This document shows, in pieces, positions 24,047 to 32,107 of a DNA stretch of 64,000 nt; position 1 is the first letter of the stretch, and the number at the start of each line of letters is the position of its first letter. Source of the DNA: a virus (taxonomy: Duplodnaviria; Caudoviricetes); IMG/VR virus record IMGVR_UViG_3300031555_002371, positions 64,001-128,000 of that record; one strand, written 5' to 3'. The translations under genes and the position numbers were made by a program. The notes under the pieces were generated by a model. The model saw only the letters and a list, made by a program, of their open reading frames with translations. It searched no databases and was not told the origin of the DNA.

Positions 24047-24682
24047 TTATAAAATATCATCTAACGTACAGTCTTCACCGACAATATGAGTAGTTACGCC
24101 GAGCTTCTTTGCCTCTGCCGGGTAGAAGTACCATTCTTTTCTATAATTTTCGAGATACTGTTCTCTCGTGATATTGGTTCTTGAAATAATATACTGCTGA
24201 GTGTGCTGTTCCATCTGACCTGTTTCAAATTCAACTCTATCTTTAAGTTTGCTCATAGAGTCCCAAGCCATAGAATTACCGTCATGGCAAAGATATGTGG
24301 CACTTGGCATACTATATCTGCGCTCTCCGGCAATATAAATCAAAAATCCCATGCTATATGCAATTCCCAGATTCACGGTATATATAGGTGTCGTAGATGT
24401 AAGAATCGCATCAATAAGTCCATAACCATCAGTAACATTACCCCCTGGCGAGTTGATGTAAATAATAATCGGTTTTCGCTCATTAATGGGGATACCCTTA
24501 TCAAGACGGTTATATCTCAAAATGTGATATACAGCCCCATCGATAATACTCTCATCGATTTCTGTATTGATGTATAATCTTCTATTTTTAACATCTTCCA
24601 TTTCAAATTTGTCTTCATAACAATAAGAAAACACCTCTTTAATTTCAGATGTTCTTTTATTTTTAATTTTCTTGTCTTCCAT
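24047..24682 (-). CDS. clpP: ClpP-like protease
   Basis: YINSPGG, AYSMG (Ser), CHDG (His), EAKKLG. Confidence 0.85.
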   Translation of the reverse strand: MEDKKIKNKRTSEIKEVFSYCYEDKFEMEDVKNRRLYINTEIDESIIDGAVYHILRYNRLDKGIPINERKPIIIYINSPGGNVTDGYGLIDAILTSTTPIYTVNLGIAYSMGFLIYIAGERRYSMPSATYLCHDGNSMAWDSMSKLKDRVEFETGQMEQHTQQYIISRTNITREQYLENYRKEWYFYPAEAKKLGVTTHIVGEDCTLDDIL

Positions 24683-24694
24683 TTCTCTTTCTCC

Positions 24695-26137
24695 TTAAAG
24701 ATTGATAATTAAACCTCGATATGCGCTTACAACTTTATATGTTTTATCATTCTTTGAGATAGCATTAGAAAGTTGTTTAACAAGGCAATGTTTGCTCTTA
24801 TCAGAGCCGTGAACAAGAACAATTTTATTCGTGTTTAAAGAACTACCATATTTCACAAGGTCTGCATTACTTGCATGACTACTAAATGTAGATAAGGTAA
24901 TGCAATCCGCTCTATTTGAAATTTTCTCTTTGTTAATAGAGATAAATTTATGCTCTCGATAATTTTTGATTCGATAAGACAAATATGATGGGTTGTCTCC
25001 TGTATATCCAGAAAAAATAATTGTACTATTTACATCTTTGAGGTATCGTTTGAGATAACTTACAATTCGACCATTAGTACAGAATCCAGAAGATGAAATA
25101 ATAATCTTTGGGATAGGATTTGCAACGACCCCCGTAGATTCGGTTTTGTCGGATACAAACTTGACATTTTCCCACGAACATACTTCTTGCCATTTTTTCA
25201 AATCAGCTTTTGTGAGCAAACTTGAATAAAGATTGCTAATATCACAACTTAATTTAGAATCAACAAAAATAGGGGTGACAAAATCTTTATCACCACCAAA
25301 AATATCAAAAATAGTAGTCAGTAATTCTTGTGTTCTACTAAAACTAAAACAGGGTAAAATTACAGTTCCTTTTCTTTCAAGCGTTGTTTCAATAGCGCAT
25401 TTCAAACGAGAGATGTCAAACTCTCTGGTTTTCTTTGATATTCTTGATGAATCTCCATATGTTGACTCCATAATAACCACATCGTTAAACATCGATGGGA
25501 TTTCAGTATTAGGAACATAATGATTTTCGGTTTTTAACGAACCGATGTCTGATGTATAAAGAACACGCTTCTTTTGATTTCCGTCGGATAAGATTAATTG
25601 TATTTGTGCAGCTCCAACACAATGAGAGTTGTTAAGCAACTGAAAACTCAAATTGTTATTCAACTTAAAAACCTTGTTATATTCTCTATATGTATCAATT
25701 AGCCTAAAAGTTTCATACACATCATCTTCGTCGTATAATGGCTGATAATCACGTTTATAACGCTTTGATAAAACCCTTGCTTCATCTTGAACAATTGCGC
25801 ATGAATTCAACAATAGAGGCTTCATAATTTTTGCAGTATTTTCGGTTGCAATAATTCTACCTCTAAAGCCATGTTTTACAAGTCTTGGCAAAAGACCGCA
25901 ATGGTCAATATGTGGATGGGCAACAAATACATAATCGATTTCAGAAGGTTTGAACTTAAATTTCTCCGTGTTTATTTTATATGAGTCCAAATAATCATTA
26001 CTCTGCGATTGATGCAATCCACACTCTAATAAACACTGTGTGTCACCATATCTTATTAAATACTGTGAGCCGGTAACATCTTCCGATGCCTTTCCAATAA
26101 AATGAATTCCATTAGTTTTTAATTTTTTCTTCGCCAT
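24695..26137 (-). CDS. MBL-fold beta-CASP ribonuclease
   Basis: HPHIDH, SHCVG, TSDIG, MESTYG, RTQEL, FSSHA, LVHG. Confidence 0.9.
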   Translation of the reverse strand: MAKKKLKTNGIHFIGKASEDVTGSQYLIRYGDTQCLLECGLHQSQSNDYLDSYKINTEKFKFKPSEIDYVFVAHPHIDHCGLLPRLVKHGFRGRIIATENTAKIMKPLLLNSCAIVQDEARVLSKRYKRDYQPLYDEDDVYETFRLIDTYREYNKVFKLNNNLSFQLLNNSHCVGAAQIQLILSDGNQKKRVLYTSDIGSLKTENHYVPNTEIPSMFNDVVIMESTYGDSSRISKKTREFDISRLKCAIETTLERKGTVILPCFSFSRTQELLTTIFDIFGGDKDFVTPIFVDSKLSCDISNLYSSLLTKADLKKWQEVCSWENVKFVSDKTESTGVVANPIPKIIISSSGFCTNGRIVSYLKRYLKDVNSTIIFSGYTGDNPSYLSYRIKNYREHKFISINKEKISNRADCITLSTFSSHASNADLVKYGSSLNTNKIVLVHGSDKSKHCLVKQLSNAISKNDKTYKVVSAYRGLIINL

Positions 26138-26315: not shown

Positions 26316-26393
26316 ATGGTTTATACCATCCTTTGCTTTTAAATTAACGACCCGACTGGTTGTGCATCGTTGAGAGGCGTGTCGGGTTCTGTT

Positions 26394-26685: not shown

Positions 26686-26868
26686 ATATAGAGATATGCG
26701 AACATATCTTATAATGCTTTTCTTTCAGATTTCTCCTATTCGAGAATTGGTTCAACACTAACCATTTTTGCCAAACCCTACGCTATCACTTCCTCGACCA
26801 AGCAATAGTCATCATCGGTTGACAACATCTCATGTATGTTGTCTTGTCGGCATACCGACCCTGGCTGT

Positions 26869-26952: not shown

Positions 26953-27039
26953 TGGTGGGTAGGGTAGGATTTGAACCTACGAAGCCGTAAGGCAACGGTT
27001 TTACAGACCGCCCGCTTTGAACCACTTGCATACCTACCC
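26953..27039 (-). tRNA. tRNA-Tyr(GTA)
   Basis: GCGGT-CTGTAAA-ACCGT, long variable arm, TTCAA, CCA. Confidence 0.95.
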
Positions 27040-27043
27040 GTAA

Positions 27044-27498
27044 ATTAACCGCTATATAGAAAACTAAAACATCATATCAATCCAACCAATTTATCTGTTA
27101 AACGCATAAGCGTGTTATAAAAAGAAAATCATTGTTGAAAAAACTATTCTTTTTTTTCAAAATCATTAAAAATTTTAATTAAATCAGAAAACGATGGTTG
27201 CAACGATGGTTGATATAGAGAATTGATGTATTGTGGTAATAGTGGTTGTTGGATAGCTTGATGTTAGAAGAATGCACTTGCTTTTCGCTGAACGAACCTT
27301 TTTTTTGAATATTTGACACCCCATAATCAAATCATATCATCTAAACTTACTATTAGTAGAATTTATGTATCAGCATTAAATGTAAAACATTTACGAGAAG
27401 ATATTAAGCATACCTTTGGCTATGCAGCATTACACTTCATCTGCACACGAAGCGATTGAAATCAACAATCTGTTTCAGTTCTCTATATAGCGGTTAAT
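27044..27498 (-). ncRNA. Putative large structured ncRNA of unknown family
   Basis: 28-bp closing stem 27471-98/27044-71 whose two DNA mismatches are G.U pairs on the minus strand; no ORF inside; internal CAACCAUCGUU repeats. Confidence 0.65.
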
Positions 27499-27580
27499 CG
27501 TGGAAATTGAGGAATCAATGTTTATTTCTTCAAAACCAATTGAACGTAGAAGGATGATTCCTCATAGCCACATAATATTT

Positions 27581-28213
27581 TTAATTTTTAGATACTTTCC
27601 ATTTTTCAATCGCATCCTCAAGGTTGTCGCCAATGTCGAGTTCGGTTTCGTACTCAACCATTGTTTCAAGCTGCATAACATCAATCTTGGTCGATGTATC
27701 ATCAAGTTCTTTACGAAGGCGATTTGCGATTGCCTTAACTTTATTTCTGTCGAAATCAATTGTAGTTACTTCTTTGATGTCGTAACAATATACGGTCTGA
27801 TTACCCTCACCGTTAAACTTGGTAGCCTTACCAGTTGTAATGGTTTCGGACGCCTTAATGTTAGCCATAGCGACTAATCTATTAAGAAGCATTCTCTTAC
27901 GATTATTAACTGCAATCATGCCATCAAAATCATGACCATTTGCGGTTTTTGCCTTGTTGATAGCAATAGTCAACTTCTCGGACTCATCCTGAAGATAACA
28001 AGCAAAATCAATAAGCTCTCCAACATTGGATGCACAATCGGTCATCTTTGGCTTTACGATTGTTTCATCCTCTGCTTCGGCAAATGCTTTCTTACGCATA
28101 TGCTCCTGTGTAACAATGGTGATGTTAGCGGGATAGCCAAGAATCACAATGATTTCATCAGATAACTTTTTCAAATAATTCTGCACTTCAAAACTTTTCT
28201 TTAATGTAATCAC
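27581..28213 (-). CDS. Coiled-coil hypothetical protein upstream of the ncRNA
   Basis: 210 aa, GTG start, RBS AAGGAG; YCYDIKEVTTIDFDRNKVK. Confidence 0.8.
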   Translation of the reverse strand: MITLKKSFEVQNYLKKLSDEIIVILGYPANITIVTQEHMRKKAFAEAEDETIVKPKMTDCASNVGELIDFACYLQDESEKLTIAINKAKTANGHDFDGMIAVNNRKRMLLNRLVAMANIKASETITTGKATKFNGEGNQTVYCYDIKEVTTIDFDRNKVKAIANRLRKELDDTSTKIDVMQLETMVEYETELDIGDNLEDAIEKWKVSKN

Positions 28214-28449
28214 AACTATTTACTCCTTTTGTTTTAATTAAACTATTTATTTAAACTTTTCAATGAGATTTGCGGCTGGCACAGCAGTTGCCATGCCAGC
28301 GCACCACAAAGAAAAGAGAAAGATAAAGAAATGAAAGCAGAGGGTATATATCCCTCTATTATACGAAAAAACAGGTTTTTCAGATTCAGTTTTAAGCCTC
28401 GAAAGTTTCGGGGCTAAGAGGGGGTAAAATAAAATTCATCTAAAAATTG

Positions 28450-29322
28450 TTAAACGGAATTTTTATTTTTCTTTCGCTCTCTATCATATGCCTTTACAAA
28501 TTCTCGTTGACAACTCACACATCTACAAGTACGATTGTTCTTGGAGTCCACTTGAAATTCATAACCACAATCTACGCATTTGATGGTTTTTATTTCTTGC
28601 GGAGAATATTGTGTGCAGGAAGAACAGTATTTCTTCGTACCATTTTTGTTGCCCTTGGTTAAGATATCGCATTCGCTGCAACGAATATAATTTTCTCCTT
28701 TGTATTTTAGATACTCATATCCAAGCTCACGGAAGTCATAAACTTGAAATACTTTTTCGCTCTCGTCATCGACAAATGTAACTCGACAACTTAAATTATC
28801 ATTTCGTTTTGGCAATTCCAATAGACCCAGTTTGCGCAATTTTCCAATCTTAATGTCGCGGTCTTGTAAGTTGCAAGTAATGCGAGCCAAAGTGAAAATC
28901 TCTTTGTCGCCAACGTTAACCCATCCGTTGTTTTGTGCATTTTTAATATTTCCAAGTTTAGCAAGACACAAGAATGTGAAAATCAATCGTTCAAGAACTT
29001 TATTGTGGATACCCGTTATGGTATCAAGCTCAGATTGAGTAATCCATACACCGTCTATTTGGTATAATGTGTATTTCCCAGCGTTGCTCGCTATACGTTC
29101 AATATTGGCATCCCAATCGAGTTTATTGTTTTCGTAGTGTGGATAGTTTTTCTCCATAAAATCAATTAGCAGGGAAGTTATTTTCTTCTTTCGATATCCA
29201 AGGTGATGATAATAATATTTTGCCAGAATCGAAAGTGTGGAAAACGGCTTTCCTACAATCTGCCCATTGTTAATACAATTTTCGGCAAATTCTTTTTCGT
29301 TAAGAATAATCATCAATCTCAC
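28450..29322 (-). CDS. Hypothetical protein with C-terminal Zn ribbons (possible RNAP-associated factor)
   Basis: Four CxxC pairs; overlaps end of RNAP gene; RBS AGGAGG. Confidence 0.7.
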   Translation of the reverse strand: MRLMIILNEKEFAENCINNGQIVGKPFSTLSILAKYYYHHLGYRKKKITSLLIDFMEKNYPHYENNKLDWDANIERIASNAGKYTLYQIDGVWITQSELDTITGIHNKVLERLIFTFLCLAKLGNIKNAQNNGWVNVGDKEIFTLARITCNLQDRDIKIGKLRKLGLLELPKRNDNLSCRVTFVDDESEKVFQVYDFRELGYEYLKYKGENYIRCSECDILTKGNKNGTKKYCSSCTQYSPQEIKTIKCVDCGYEFQVDSKNNRTCRCVSCQREFVKAYDRERKKNKNSV

Positions 29323-32107
29323 CTCCTAATGTTTTGGTTTTCATAACGAAGTCGATTCCGCAATATTGGAAATCGCCAACATCGTCTGTCTGCTCCGGGA
29401 ACTGAATCTGCCCGCCAGAGTTCCTAAGTAAATTTTTTATAATAACATTCCCACTAACATCCCACGCAAACTGTTTGGAATTCTCAGTGTGATAAAGCAT
29501 ATCAATAACAATATTACATAATTCATCTTCGTTGGAACAAATTTTTTCGCATTCGCTTTTGAACCACTTGGAACAAACATCTCTTTCCATCCAGAGGTCA
29601 TAAATATCTACCTTTTGGTTCTCACTTTTCTTTTTGAATAGTTCTAACTTCTGAAGGTATTCCTTGTATATTGCATAAACCTTGTTAAAGTCGTGTTTAC
29701 TATATTCCGCGTCACTTTTCAATATAGAGCAATCAAAAGTAGGCTGCTCACACTTCTTTGACAAATACCCTTTAAATGTCTGCTCAAACAACCAGCATAT
29801 TCTATTGACGATACAGGCATTTGTTCCAACAGGTTTGAGTTTATAATAATAATCCAAATACTCAATCATTTCTTCGGTCTTATCCTGATATGCTTCAAGC
29901 TCTTGAATTGTGTAAATACCGTATTCCCAGAATCTTCTGGCTACACCTTGATTGTTGCTTTTTTGGTAGAGATTATTTTGAGTTTTAAGGCTTGGATACA
30001 CATAAGTCATAAAATACGGCTTATTAGCAGCCACAATAGACTTATTAAATTCTTTTCTTTTGATTGCATCCTCGTCATCGGTGTCCTTGATTTTATTGTC
30101 TCGATAACTATACCAATAGCTTGGCATTGATTTTGCGATAACGCCTTTCGCTCTATCAATTGTGTTTTGCTGATAAAGCTGTCCGCACATAATGCGATAA
30201 CCAAGTGTCTCATATTCTATTGTCCCAGGTTCAAATCCTGCTTGAACCTCAAACATTCCGGTGATATGATTTGTTACTGTTCCGATATCGTCGTTAAATG
30301 CAAGTTTGTTTGCTTGTATGATATCATCTTCGCTTGGAATTTTCTTATCCGCTTTTCGCTGTACACACATAATTGTTTTCAGGTTTTGTGTATTATGTAA
30401 AATAACGGGGTTGTCGGTACACATATTTGTATCACCGTCTTTATCAGCTCCGTTCATAGCGTCACAAGCAGTATCAAAAGCATTGAAAATAAGAGCGGTG
30501 GTGATATACTGATACCAATAGCGAGTGTCCTCGTTATTTGCAAGCCTCATTCTGCGGATATTGTTATGACACGTCATTGGCGCACGAAAACAAGCAATTT
30601 CTTCGGCGGATCGGTCAATCCAATATTTGTGATATACCTCTCCCGCTTTTAGCAATCCTGTGATTTCAAGTCCGAACATACTCTGTGCCAATGCATAAGG
30701 GTCTCCGCTAATCATTGCAAAATTTGCATTGATACGAATTGCGCCCCTCTCACCCATTTCAATACGCTTACGAATCATATTCCAGATTTTGTGACGAATG
30801 TGCGGGTCATTAATCATACGCTTATCTGCCATGAGAGCTTTTACGCAGTAATCTATATTATCGCCAAAGGCGTTTTTTTCGTTTAAGCCGAAACCAGCAA
30901 GAAACACAATACTCTTGCGGTAGTCCATACCCAGAATATCCTTAATCTCATCAATGGTCGGTTGGCAAAGTTCGTATAGTTCTTCGTCAGTAAAATGATA
31001 ACTCTGTAAAAATTGGTAATTGGTGTCTCTAACACCCTCTAATTTGTTAGGTGTAGTTTTGGGTGTGGAGAACTGATAATGATTTTCTTGGCAATTACGA
31101 TAAAAGTCCTCCCAGCTATCATAGCTATCCCAGAGCTTCAACATTGATACAGTAAGAATAACTTCAGCGTTTCTTATATCCCTCTTGTCGCCCCACGCAT
31201 CTGTTATCTCATAAGTCCCTGCGACCTTTTCCGCAAACTCCAAAAAGTCAAATGTATATACCATCCCCTTAGTCCATGCATATCGTGTATTCATACCGGC
31301 AATAGTATGTTCGCCATCACCAGTTAAATACTCATTAACCTTTCTGGAATAAGAGGGGAGCATTAAGCCGTAGCCATCAGAGTCATTGTGTTCGATTTCA
31401 AAATCGTTTTCATAACTCATAATCGGCTCATCACTATTTTCATCATTGAGAAGAATGATATCTTCTTTAAAGCGGGTAATGCAATCATTCACAACAATAA
31501 TACCGTTTGGCTCTGGTATAGGGACGGAACCAGAGCAGATAAGTGCTTGGTATGCTTCGAGTTTGGCTGGTACAAGCTCTTTTTCTATATTACGCCCATT
31601 ATCAAGTCGCTTTTTTAACTCAGGATATATTTCTTCGTTTACGTAAACAATCGTGGAGTTTTTAATGCCGCCATTTGTGCCGAGAAATCTACGATATCGG
31701 ATAATGCAACTCTTTCCATCAATTTGACCGAAGTTGATTGAGAACCCGTCATTTGCTCTATCATAATCGGCGTTGTTCTCCATGATTACACAAACATAAT
31801 CTTTTTGGAACTGCAGATTATACAAATTATCGTAATACTTGTTAATCAGCATTTTTGTTTCTCTTGTTTTTGGTTTTTTCTTTGTGTCTCTAATCTTTCT
31901 CTGAATACATCTTACAGCATCATTGATGTCGTTCTGGTTATTGATTTCATCAATGAAGCGTAAACATTGGCTGTCGTTCAATGCCACTATGCAATCCGGG
32001 CAATCGCGCATAGCAGTTTTCAGAGGGAGAGTAAGATTCCAATTGGCTATTTTAAGTTGTTTGCTCGAAAGTTTATAAATTAATTTGTGACAACTTTTTT
32101 GTTCCAT
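29300..32107 (-). CDS. YonO-like single-subunit RNA polymerase (RdRP-like double-psi barrel)
   Basis: 935 aa; SDGYG, RYAWTKG, FRAPM, catalytic GADKDGD, IGTVTN, QNTIDRAKG. Confidence 0.88.
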   Translation of the reverse strand: MEQKSCHKLIYKLSSKQLKIANWNLTLPLKTAMRDCPDCIVALNDSQCLRFIDEINNQNDINDAVRCIQRKIRDTKKKPKTRETKMLINKYYDNLYNLQFQKDYVCVIMENNADYDRANDGFSINFGQIDGKSCIIRYRRFLGTNGGIKNSTIVYVNEEIYPELKKRLDNGRNIEKELVPAKLEAYQALICSGSVPIPEPNGIIVVNDCITRFKEDIILLNDENSDEPIMSYENDFEIEHNDSDGYGLMLPSYSRKVNEYLTGDGEHTIAGMNTRYAWTKGMVYTFDFLEFAEKVAGTYEITDAWGDKRDIRNAEVILTVSMLKLWDSYDSWEDFYRNCQENHYQFSTPKTTPNKLEGVRDTNYQFLQSYHFTDEELYELCQPTIDEIKDILGMDYRKSIVFLAGFGLNEKNAFGDNIDYCVKALMADKRMINDPHIRHKIWNMIRKRIEMGERGAIRINANFAMISGDPYALAQSMFGLEITGLLKAGEVYHKYWIDRSAEEIACFRAPMTCHNNIRRMRLANNEDTRYWYQYITTALIFNAFDTACDAMNGADKDGDTNMCTDNPVILHNTQNLKTIMCVQRKADKKIPSEDDIIQANKLAFNDDIGTVTNHITGMFEVQAGFEPGTIEYETLGYRIMCGQLYQQNTIDRAKGVIAKSMPSYWYSYRDNKIKDTDDEDAIKRKEFNKSIVAANKPYFMTYVYPSLKTQNNLYQKSNNQGVARRFWEYGIYTIQELEAYQDKTEEMIEYLDYYYKLKPVGTNACIVNRICWLFEQTFKGYLSKKCEQPTFDCSILKSDAEYSKHDFNKVYAIYKEYLQKLELFKKKSENQKVDIYDLWMERDVCSKWFKSECEKICSNEDELCNIVIDMLYHTENSKQFAWDVSGNVIIKNLLRNSGGQIQFPEQTDDVGDFQYCGIDFVMKTKTLGGEIDDYS

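What the first reader, a model, noticed from the sequence alone, without database searches (positions are those of the whole stretch)
27044..28213. Coiled-coil protein gene followed by a ~455-nt closed-stem RNA with internal short repeats: candidate new protein-RNA system
Seen: after the 210-aa gene comes a hairpin (UGAGGAAUCA/UGAUUCCUCA, 27508-64). Next is a domain closed by a 28-bp stem (27471-98 with 27044-71) that extends further through wobble pairs. Both DNA-level mismatches in the stem are G.U on the transcribed strand, which favours an RNA structure over transposon ends. The interior has no ORF and has a C/A-rich tract with tandem CAACCAUCGUU (27190-27212) and related ACCAC/ACAUC units. 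The stem ends 4 nt before tRNA-Tyr, so RNase P cleavage would define its 3' end. I cannot assign it to tmRNA, RNase P, SRP, 6S or an intron. Inference: a ribonucleoprotein, with the repeats acting as protein-binding sites, a decoy or a template.
Basis: partly seen in the sequence, partly recalled or inferred. Interest (0 to 1): 0.8.

Follow-up and report, generated by a model that had tools for sequence, protein, structure and literature searches.

The report
New phage RNA with partner protein
A large, intricately folded non-coding RNA of a kind not found in the RNA family database follows the same small phage protein gene in nearly every relative examined, so the two probably work as a unit whose job is still unknown.

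Summary
At 27043-27499 (minus strand) lies a 457-nt RNA closed by a 28-bp stem, between a 210-aa gene and tRNA-Tyr.

About 25 related metagenomic phage loci carry the same element, 392-530 nt long. Across 21 aligned members, 96.6% of the proposed pairs form, against 35-42% when partners are slid. 34 of 44 pairs show changes on both sides, and G.U outnumbers A.C 85 to 14. This points to an RNA fold on the gene strand, not transposon ends.

The conserved parts are the closing stem P1, a second long-range helix P2, an H-type pseudoknot with near-invariant bases, and a 3' AAUUGG motif. The interior varies.

Rfam 15 has no match for the window or for 15 relatives.

The protein family has 956 clusters at 50% identity, no Pfam domain and no name. 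In 14 of 15 loci found through the protein, the RNA follows it. Every locus found through the RNA that has upstream sequence carries the protein.

The tandem repeat and C/A-rich tract are peculiar to this phage.

The function is unknown. The most likely reading is a processed stable RNA working with the protein. Direct binding was not tested.

The parts
28271..28363 (-). Conserved 5' leader of the protein gene. It has a TATAAT-like box (28358-28363), a pyrimidine tract UUUCUUUAUCUUUCUCUUUUCUU (about 28308-28336) and a leader hairpin (about 28271-28304).
   Evidence: The leader alignment of clades A and B shows the CU tract nearly identical and the hairpin keeping its pairing through changes on both arms (GCTGGCA/TGCCAGC, TCTGGTA/TACCAGG, CTCGGTATA/TGTATCGAG, TCCGATAT/GTGTCGGG). 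The tract occurs once in the 156-kb genome. No formal pair count was made.
27581..28213 (-). Gene for the 210-aa partner protein (GTG start), of unknown function.
   Evidence: ORF. No Pfam family. 176 clusters at 90% identity and 956 at 50% identity, all about 200-220 aa and unnamed. AF2 pLDDT 91.6. Best fold match is 3kdq_A, Z 10.5, function unknown.
27508..27564 (-). Spacer hairpin between the stop codon and the RNA. Its loop carries AUCAUCCUUCU, which is conserved in clade A.
   Evidence: I16. Sequences of window, L004, L006 and L068.
27043..27499 (-). The whole 457-nt structured RNA.
27471..27498 (-). P1, 5' arm of the closing stem.
   Evidence: I1. 24 of 28 pairs change on both sides among 21 members.
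27044..27071 (-). P1, 3' arm of the closing stem.
27453..27458 (-). P2, 5' strand (CAAUCG).
   Evidence: Pairs with 27083-27088. 100% of cells are paired and 3 of 6 pairs change on both sides. Further compensations are CAAAACC/GGUUUUG, CAGGCC/GGUCUG and CGGGC/GUUCG.
27083..27091 (-). Invariant 3' motif AAUUGGUUG. Its last six bases are the P2 3' strand.
   Evidence: A409-G413 are invariant in 21 sequences. Pair counts.
27422..27452 (-). H-type pseudoknot core. S1 is CUUC (27449-52) with GAAG (27435-38). S2 is GUGCAG (27441-46) with CUGCAU (27422-27).
   Evidence: All 6 pairs of S2 change on both sides, for example GUGUGA/UCACAC, CACAA/UUGUG and CCGGA/UCCGG. S1 is nearly invariant, with CG to UA in clade B and GUUC/GAAC in L077.
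27190..27212 (-). Tandem CAACCAUCGUU, two copies. This is a window-specific duplication of a CAAYCA motif that is single in clades A and B and complementary to the 3' UGRUUG.
   Evidence: (D4).
26953..27039 (-). tRNA-Tyr, first of five tRNAs, 4 nt after P1.

Best explanation
This is a member of an undescribed family of large (392-530 nt) structured non-coding RNAs of uncultured tailed phages. The protein atlas clusters that carry taxa point to Bacillota.

The RNA is made as the 3' part of the transcript of a conserved gene for a protein of about 205-215 aa.

Architecture, shown by comparison:
- A 24-32 bp closing stem, P1, joins the two ends.
- A second long-range helix, P2, pairs the 5' CARYCG with the invariant 3' AAUUGRYUG.
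- Next to P2 lies a compact H-type pseudoknot with near-invariant bases (CGCUUC ... GAYGAAGURUA).
- The interior is variable and holds many hairpins.

Biogenesis, inferred:
- The long perfect duplex P1 acts like the processing stalks of rRNA operons. A double-strand-specific nuclease (RNase III type) would release the RNA from the mRNA.
- The 3' end is set 2-10 nt after P1, either by RNase P at an abutting tRNA or by an intrinsic terminator.
- In most members the upstream mRNA can refold into a small hairpin that reuses the first 5-12 nt of the P1 5' arm. This would cap the mRNA 3' end after cleavage.

Function, inferred and least certain: the released RNA is a stable RNA that acts together with the co-encoded protein. 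The invariant pseudoknot/P2 junction is the likeliest recognition site. The RNA probably acts late in infection, alongside the phage's tRNA and RNA-processing genes.

My odds:
- Real structured RNA family linked to this protein: about 0.9.
- Excision at P1: about 0.5.
- Direct RNA-protein complex: about 0.45.
For: Structure:
- On 21 distinct members, 96.6% of cells pair, against 34.5-42.0% with partners slid by 1-3 columns.
- 34 of 44 pairs change on both sides, and 0 of 500 shuffles reach any measure.
- G.U outnumbers A.C 85 to 14, so the fold is read on the gene strand.
- RNAalifold, run without my structure, recovers P1, P2 and S2.
- A GC-rich member (L070) keeps P1 and the core with almost wholly different letters.

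Linkage:
- 14 of 15 distinct loci found through the protein carry the RNA directly downstream.
- All 18 loci with the RNA core and upstream sequence, 10 of them found through the RNA alone, carry the protein gene directly upstream on the same strand, at 36-63% identity.
- Other neighbouring genes differ between loci.

One transcript:
- The gap from the stop codon to P1 is as short as 8 nt (L054).
- Terminators follow P1 in L009-14, L042, L070 and L076.
- tRNAs start 2-10 nt after P1 in nine members.

Alternative upstream hairpin: in 17 of 22 members it involves 5 or more bases of the P1 arm.

Not known: no Rfam 15 match for the window at E <= 10 or for 15 relatives at gathering score.
Against: - There is no expression data.
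- No cultured phage in 50,697 GenBank records carries the protein.
- The protein is acidic (pI 5.3) and has no recognised RNA-binding domain. Binding therefore rests on synteny alone.
- One protein homologue (L074) has no room for the RNA downstream.
- RNase III cleavage of P1 is an analogy, not a result.
- The sequences are related, so shuffle controls overstate significance. The slid-partner control is the fairer one.
Confidence: 0.6

Rival explanations
1. The RNA is a purely cis-acting 3' untranslated region. It controls the stability, translation or termination of the protein's own mRNA, is never released, and has no function of its own.
For: It is always on the same transcript as the gene, sometimes 8 nt after the stop codon. 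The gene also has a conserved 5' leader with a pyrimidine tract that could pair with its own ribosome-binding site. The upstream hairpin competes with P1, as in regulatory switches.
Against: About 450 nt with a near-invariant pseudoknot and two long-range helices, kept from 30% to about 60% G+C, is far more than known stabilisers or terminators need. The interior keeps many hairpins with different sequences.
Confidence: 0.2
2. It is an RNA-only assembly like ROOL or GOLLD, for example a homo-oligomeric cage. The upstream protein gene is only a conserved neighbour that supplies the promoter.
For: It shares the setting of ROOL and GOLLD: phage, beside tRNA arrays, large and with pseudoknots. The protein is acidic and has no RNA-binding domain. 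The interior CAAYCA motif and the 5' CARYCG are both complementary to one 3' motif, which would suit pairing between molecules.
Against: The linkage to one protein family is far tighter than to tRNAs. Several members have no tRNA nearby but all have the protein. ROOL is reported to have no identified protein partner (PMC12286853).
Confidence: 0.13
3. It is a small non-autonomous mobile element (MITE) or another DNA-level palindrome, such as an origin, packaging site or recombination site, whose inverted ends are read by a protein.
For: It has 28-nt inverted terminal repeats with TTAA at both outer ends. Both DNA strands fold about equally well in silico.
Against: It is a single copy in the 156-kb genome. 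It sits in the same position after the same gene in all relatives. There is no flanking target duplication (cacg and ttac). G.U to A.C is 85 to 14. The pseudoknot and P2 covary, which a DNA end has no reason to do.
Confidence: 0.03

Closest known systems
ROOL RNA (Rumen-Originating, Ornate, Large; Weinberg et al. 2017, PMC5737381)
   Same: Several hundred nt with multi-helix junctions and pseudoknots. Encoded by phages and prophages, often beside tRNA arrays. Function unknown.
   Different: No match to the Rfam model in the window or in 15 relatives. Different conserved motifs. This RNA is shorter (392-530 nt against a mean of 581). It always follows one protein gene, whereas ROOL has no known protein partner.
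GOLLD RNA
   Same: Phage or prophage RNA near tRNA islands, sometimes joined to tRNAs. One part is conserved and another variable.
   Different: GOLLD often exceeds 800 nt, and its conserved part is the 3' region. Here both ends are conserved and the middle varies. No Rfam match.
OLE RNA with its Oap proteins
   Same: A large ornate RNA of Bacillota that works with dedicated proteins (references in PMC12286853). From my own knowledge, unchecked here: the Oap genes lie beside the RNA.
   Different: OLE is chromosomal, in extremophiles, and not in phages. Its partners are unrelated. No Rfam match here.
RNase III processing stalks of rRNA operons and phage T7 early transcripts (textbook knowledge, not tested here)
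   Same: A long duplex formed by the sequences flanking a stable RNA inside a polycistronic transcript that also holds tRNAs. Its sequence is free to vary while the pairing is kept.
   Different: Cleavage has not been shown here, and the RNA enclosed is not rRNA.
phi29 packaging RNA (pRNA)
   Same: A phage-encoded structured RNA that acts with phage proteins.
   Different: From my own knowledge, unchecked here: pRNA is about 170 nt. No Rfam family of any kind matches this RNA, and the genomic setting differs.
PDB 3kdq, an uncharacterised protein of Corynebacterium diphtheriae (closest fold to the protein)
   Same: Z 10.5, with 146 of 152 residues aligned. Foldseek probability 0.93.
   Different: 12% identity, rmsd 4.3 A, and no known function, so it explains nothing yet.

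Membership tests
Structured non-coding RNA (generic) | Base pairs kept through compensatory changes, beyond controls | tested here: met
   96.6% paired against 35-42% with partners slid. 34 of 44 pairs change on both sides.
Structured non-coding RNA (generic) | Strand-specific wobble pairs (G.U in excess over A.C) | tested here: met
   85 G.U against 14 A.C cells.
Structured non-coding RNA (generic) | Transcribed as a discrete RNA | not testable with these tools
ROOL RNA | Match to the Rfam covariance model | tested here: not met
   No match at E <= 10 in 27030-27590. None at gathering score in 15 relatives.
ROOL RNA | Phage setting next to tRNA genes | tested here: met
   This is context only and does not define membership.
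GOLLD RNA | Match to the Rfam covariance model | tested here: not met
tmRNA, RNase P RNA, 6S RNA, SRP RNA, OLE, pRNA, group I and II introns | Match to the Rfam model (and ARAGORN for tmRNA) | tested here: not met
MITE or transposon ends | Several copies at unrelated sites | tested here: not met
   Only the locus itself matches in the 156-kb genome. Relatives have it at the same position.
MITE or transposon ends | Target-site duplication flanking the inverted repeats | tested here: not met
   The flanks are cacg and ttac.
RNase III processing stalk | A nearly uninterrupted duplex of about 20 bp or more formed by the flanks of the RNA | tested here: met
   24-32 bp in every full-length member.
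RNase III processing stalk | Staggered cleavage within the duplex | not testable with these tools
   Needs end mapping or an in vitro assay.
Ribonucleoprotein (protein binds this RNA) | Conserved co-occurrence of the two genes | tested here: met
   14 of 15 protein-ascertained loci carry the RNA. All 18 loci with the RNA core and upstream sequence carry the protein.
Ribonucleoprotein (protein binds this RNA) | Physical binding | not testable with these tools
   The complex predictor takes no RNA chain. The protein has pI 5.3 and no RNA-binding domain.
Contractile-tail tube protein (Goslar gp217-like), for the 210-aa protein | Significant sequence or fold match to a tail tube protein | tested here: inconclusive
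   The profile hits gp217 at E 0.009 over residues 71-177. No tube protein appears among the fold matches.

The most novel reading that the evidence does not exclude
The RNA and its protein form a new kind of phage ribonucleoprotein. A processed RNA of about 450 nt has an invariant pseudoknot junction that the protein recognises. The complex would act on translation, tRNAs or host defence during late infection. It would be the first large ornate phage RNA with an identified dedicated protein partner.
Probability: 0.35. Interest if true: 0.85.

Novelty: new variant of a known kind. Interest (0 to 1): 0.78.

Why it matters
Bacterial and phage non-coding RNAs longer than 400 nt with complex conserved folds are very few. 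Each one found so far (RNase P RNA, group I and II introns, OLE, GOLLD, ROOL, raiA) has turned out to be a catalyst or an unexpected assembly.

ROOL and GOLLD share this RNA's setting beside phage tRNA arrays, yet their function is still unknown, partly because no partner is known. This family comes with a fixed partner gene, a defined core and clear ends. That gives a direct experimental handle: co-expression, pull-down and cryo-EM. It may also help explain why large RNAs gather at phage tRNA arrays.

The protein family is large (956 clusters at 50% identity) and entirely unannotated, so the finding also gives a first context for it.

Tried and rejected
- **Known RNA families.** Rfam 15 was run at permissive thresholds on the window and at gathering score on 15 relatives. 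Only tRNAs matched the region.
- **MITE or transposon.** Rejected: single copy, fixed position, no target duplication, G.U bias.
- **C/A-rich, G-free tract as a family feature.** Rejected. Only the window has a 40-nt stretch without G (17 of 300 shuffles reach it). In the other 21 members the most G-poor stretch is no more G-poor than in shuffled copies.
- **Tandem CAACCAUCGUU as a repeated binding site or template.** Rejected. The relatives that have the motif carry one copy.
- **Extension of P1 through wobble pairs.** Relatives support the P2 register instead.
- **Protein annotation.** Pfam gave nothing. PHROGs gave one unnamed family at E 1.6e-4. Searches of PDB sequences, Foldseek PDB and BFVD, VIA-align and the ESM atlas gave only uncharacterised relatives (3kdq, a share of DUF6847) and a borderline hit to a tail tube protein.
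- **Literature.** The large phage RNA catalogue of 2023 (PMC10690425) names nothing like it in its main text, though one of its 10,006 unnamed candidates could overlap. One 2026 preprint could not be opened.
- **Cultured phages.** A tblastn search of 50,697 records found no homologue.
- **Structure-aware alignment.** MAFFT Q-INS-i was not installed.

Full report
**Setting**

The window is bases 64001-128000 of a complete 156-kb IMG/VR virus record, with 36.9% G+C. All of the following lie on the minus strand, in this order:
- a 935-aa YonO/RdRP-like RNA polymerase, 29300-32107 (Pfam RdRP);
- a 290-aa gene;
- the 210-aa gene, 27581-28213;
- the region in question;
- five tRNAs: Tyr, Asp, Asn, Glu, Thr;
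- a beta-CASP RNase J-like nuclease, ClpP and a metallophosphatase;
- terminase, portal, endolysin and tape measure genes.

**Checking the observation**

- the 10-bp hairpin at 27508-64;
- the 28-nt arms at 27044-71 and 27471-98, whose two mismatches are both G.U on the gene strand;
- the tandem 11-mer at 27190-27212;
- the 4-nt gap to tRNA-Tyr.

The RNA folds much better than shuffles (z = -5.7), but so does the opposite strand (z = -5.3). Energy therefore cannot decide between an RNA and a DNA palindrome. The element is single-copy in the genome. No Rfam 15 family matches it, even at E <= 10.

**Relatives**

- A search for homologues of the protein in viral contigs gave 11 loci. BLAST and reading of the sequences showed that the closing stem and two blocks of sequence recur downstream of the gene in all of them, while the middle diverges.
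- A degenerate pattern for the 5' block found further members in viral contigs, metagenomes and one binned MAG.
- Contigs fetched for seven more distant protein homologues added more. One of these is a GC-rich version, L070. Its closing stem (CCGGACGGGCCCCUGGCAGGAG... with ...CUCCUGCCAGGCGCCCGUCCGG) and core (CCGCUUCCGCCGGACGAAGUAUGGCUCCGG) keep the design with almost none of the letters.
- Full-length members are 392-530 nt, and each is closed by 24-32 bp.

**Structure**

I named four helices on the window sequence:
- P1: RNA positions 2-29 with 429-456;
- P2: 42-47 with 412-417;
- S1: 48-51 with 62-65;
- S2: 54-59 with 73-78. S1 and S2 interleave to form an H-type pseudoknot.

On a MAFFT alignment of 21 distinct members:
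- 96.6% of 903 cells form standard pairs, against 34.5-42.0% when each 3' partner is slid by 1-3 columns.
- 34 of 44 pairs change on both sides.
- No shuffle out of 500 reaches any measure.
- Per helix, the pairs that change on both sides are 24 of 28 in P1, 3 of 6 in P2, 6 of 6 in S2 and 1 of 4 in S1. S1 is otherwise invariant.

Members outside that alignment add further compensations:
- S1 as GUUC/GAAC in L077;
- P2 as CGGGC/GUUCG in L076, CAAAACC/GGUUUUG in L012 and CAGGCC/GGUCUG in L014;
- S2 as CACAA/UUGUG in L072.

Non-Watson-Crick cells are 85 G.U against 14 A.C. A DNA-level inverted repeat read by a protein would show no such bias, so the fold belongs to the RNA of the gene strand.

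RNAalifold, run without my structure, recovers P1, P2 and S2 on the whole set and on each clade. It also finds further hairpins in the interior that keep their place with different sequences. The interior alignment is too poor to give a full consensus.

Bases invariant in all 21 aligned members include C46, G47, U49, U50, C51, A60, G62, A63, A64, U66, U68 and A409-G413.

**Linkage to the protein**

- Of 15 distinct loci reached through the protein alone, 14 have the RNA directly downstream. These 14 are L004, L006, L007, L008, L009, L012, L013, L014, L068, L070, L072/73, L075, L076 and L077.
- The exception is L074. There a flavoprotein gene starts 61 nt after the stop codon, and two tRNAs with a 190-nt spacer lie upstream instead.
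- All 18 loci with the RNA core and upstream sequence, 10 of them reached through the RNA pattern alone, carry the protein gene directly upstream on the same strand, at 36-63% identity.
- Other neighbours change between loci. The polymerase and the 290-aa gene are upstream in some. Elsewhere there are YunG-like and YonJ-like genes, and in L070 there are FtsH, a glycosyltransferase and YfhO.
- The tRNA link is looser. A tRNA, mostly Tyr, starts 2-10 nt after P1 in nine members. L009-14, L042, L070 and L076 have an intrinsic terminator there and no tRNA.

The constant unit is therefore gene plus RNA on one transcript. The gap between them can be as small as 8 nt (L054), which leaves no room for a separate promoter.

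**The protein**

- The family is large and unnamed: 176 clusters at 90% identity, and 956 at 50% identity with E <= 0.001, of which 428 have E <= 1e-30. Nearly all are 200-220 aa.
- No Pfam family matches. One unnamed PHROG matches weakly.
- The AlphaFold2 model is confident (pLDDT 91.6). It has an N-terminal helix, a short beta-hairpin, a long helical hairpin, a long beta-hairpin, a long helix and a C-terminal helix.
- The only whole-domain fold match is 3kdq, an uncharacterised Corynebacterium protein (Z 10.5; Foldseek probability 0.93). Atlas neighbours are unnamed clusters from Bacillota and viruses.
- A profile search of PDB sequences hits the tail tube protein gp217 of phage Goslar at E 0.009 over residues 71-177. 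I treat this as inconclusive.
- The protein is acidic, pI 5.3.
- Invariant residues include H38, K42, E50, K89, D97, N103, K132, F133, N134, Q139, Y142, Y144, S174 and D178. Several sit on the long beta-hairpin.

**How it probably works**

Shown:
- the fold;
- its strand;
- its fixed place behind the gene;
- its ends, next to a tRNA or a terminator.

Inferred:
1. P1 is a processing stalk. A nearly perfect duplex of 24-32 bp, whose outer half varies freely in sequence and which brackets a structured RNA inside an mRNA-RNA-tRNA transcript, is the arrangement used for RNase III release of rRNAs.
2. In 17 of 22 members, the 30 nt before P1 form a hairpin with at least 5 of the first bases of the P1 5' arm, often with a UUCG loop and -8 to -23 kcal/mol. 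This hairpin and P1 exclude each other. After a cut in P1 it would become the 3'-terminal hairpin of the protein's mRNA.
3. The released RNA acts with the protein. This is the weakest step, because it rests only on co-inheritance.

What the pair does is unknown. Its company suggests a late-infection role connected with RNA metabolism or translation. That company is the phage's own polymerase, tRNAs, an RNase J-like nuclease, and two other small RNA motifs in the same array.

- The tandem CAACCAUCGUU is a duplication found only in this phage. Clades A and B carry one CAAYCA motif at that place. It is complementary to the same 3' UGRUUG that forms P2, and it tends to follow its G/A change. It may therefore be an alternative or intermolecular partner, but clade C lacks it.
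- The G-free tract is not conserved.

**Comparison with known systems**

In kind it is closest to ROOL and GOLLD, which are large, pseudoknotted, phage-borne and beside tRNA arrays (PMC5737381; PMC12286853). It matches neither model, however, and it has a dedicated protein gene, as OLE RNA does. It is not a member of any Rfam 15 family.

I could not exclude that part of it is among the 10,006 unnamed candidates of PMC10690425.

Another first-reader note of this scan (e1-5760911) describes a 206-aa helical protein flanked by structured RNA in a different genome. It shares only 3 of 180 short words with the protein here, so I did not establish that it is a family member. Its mention of a leader hairpin led me to look upstream. 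There I found a conserved leader with a pyrimidine tract, unique in the genome, and a hairpin that keeps its pairing through changes on both arms.

**Verdict**

This is a real, well-supported new class of large phage RNA with a fixed protein partner. Its function is open.

Noticed in passing
window 26710-26820 (-): A full-length match to the drum RNA motif (RF02958) lies between tRNA-Asp and tRNA-Asn. It scores 39 bits with E 4e-5, just under the gathering score of 43. The tRNA array therefore holds at least one more structured RNA of unknown function.
   Followed up: no
window 26350-26386 (-): A match to the abiF RNA motif (RF03085) lies directly after tRNA-Thr. It scores 42.4 bits, above the gathering score of 37.
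   Followed up: no
window 28271-28363 (-): The 5' leader of the 210-aa gene is more conserved than the gene itself in clades A and B. It has a TATAAT-like box and a tract UUUCUUUAUCUUUCUCUUUUCUU that occurs once in the 156-kb genome. It also has a hairpin that keeps its pairing through changes on both arms. The tract could pair with the gene's AAAAGGAG ribosome-binding site.
   Followed up: partly
window 27530-27550 (-); L004, L006, L068 at the same place: The loop of the spacer hairpin carries AUCAUCCUUCU, which is conserved in clade A and resembles the 3' end of 16S rRNA.
   Followed up: no
relatives, 30 nt before P1 (e.g. L009:4630-4662, L042, L012, L054): A small hairpin, often with a UUCG loop, reuses the first 5-12 nt of the P1 5' arm, so it and P1 exclude each other. 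In 17 of 22 members it involves at least 5 arm bases. The window itself lacks it.
   Followed up: partly
L074:2010-3200: This is the one protein homologue without the RNA downstream. A terminator hairpin and a flavoprotein gene follow at once. Upstream lie two tRNAs separated by 190 nt that contain CCGCUUCAUUGGAAG and UAAUUGAGAGG, faint echoes of the core motifs.
   Followed up: partly
L070:1-6639: A GC-rich member of the pair sits among FtsH-like, peptidase M50-like, glycosyltransferase and YfhO genes on a 78-kb contig. This does not look like a phage structural region.
   Followed up: no
window 24695-26137 (-) and 24047-24682 (-): A beta-CASP/RMMBL (RNase J-like) nuclease and ClpP follow the tRNA array here. 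The same pair lies close to the protein-RNA pair in L068 and L072.
   Followed up: no
window 29300-32107 (-): A 935-aa protein matches Pfam RdRP (PF05183) at E 1e-6 and phrog_25339 at E 2e-187. It is a YonO-like single-subunit RNA polymerase.
   Followed up: no
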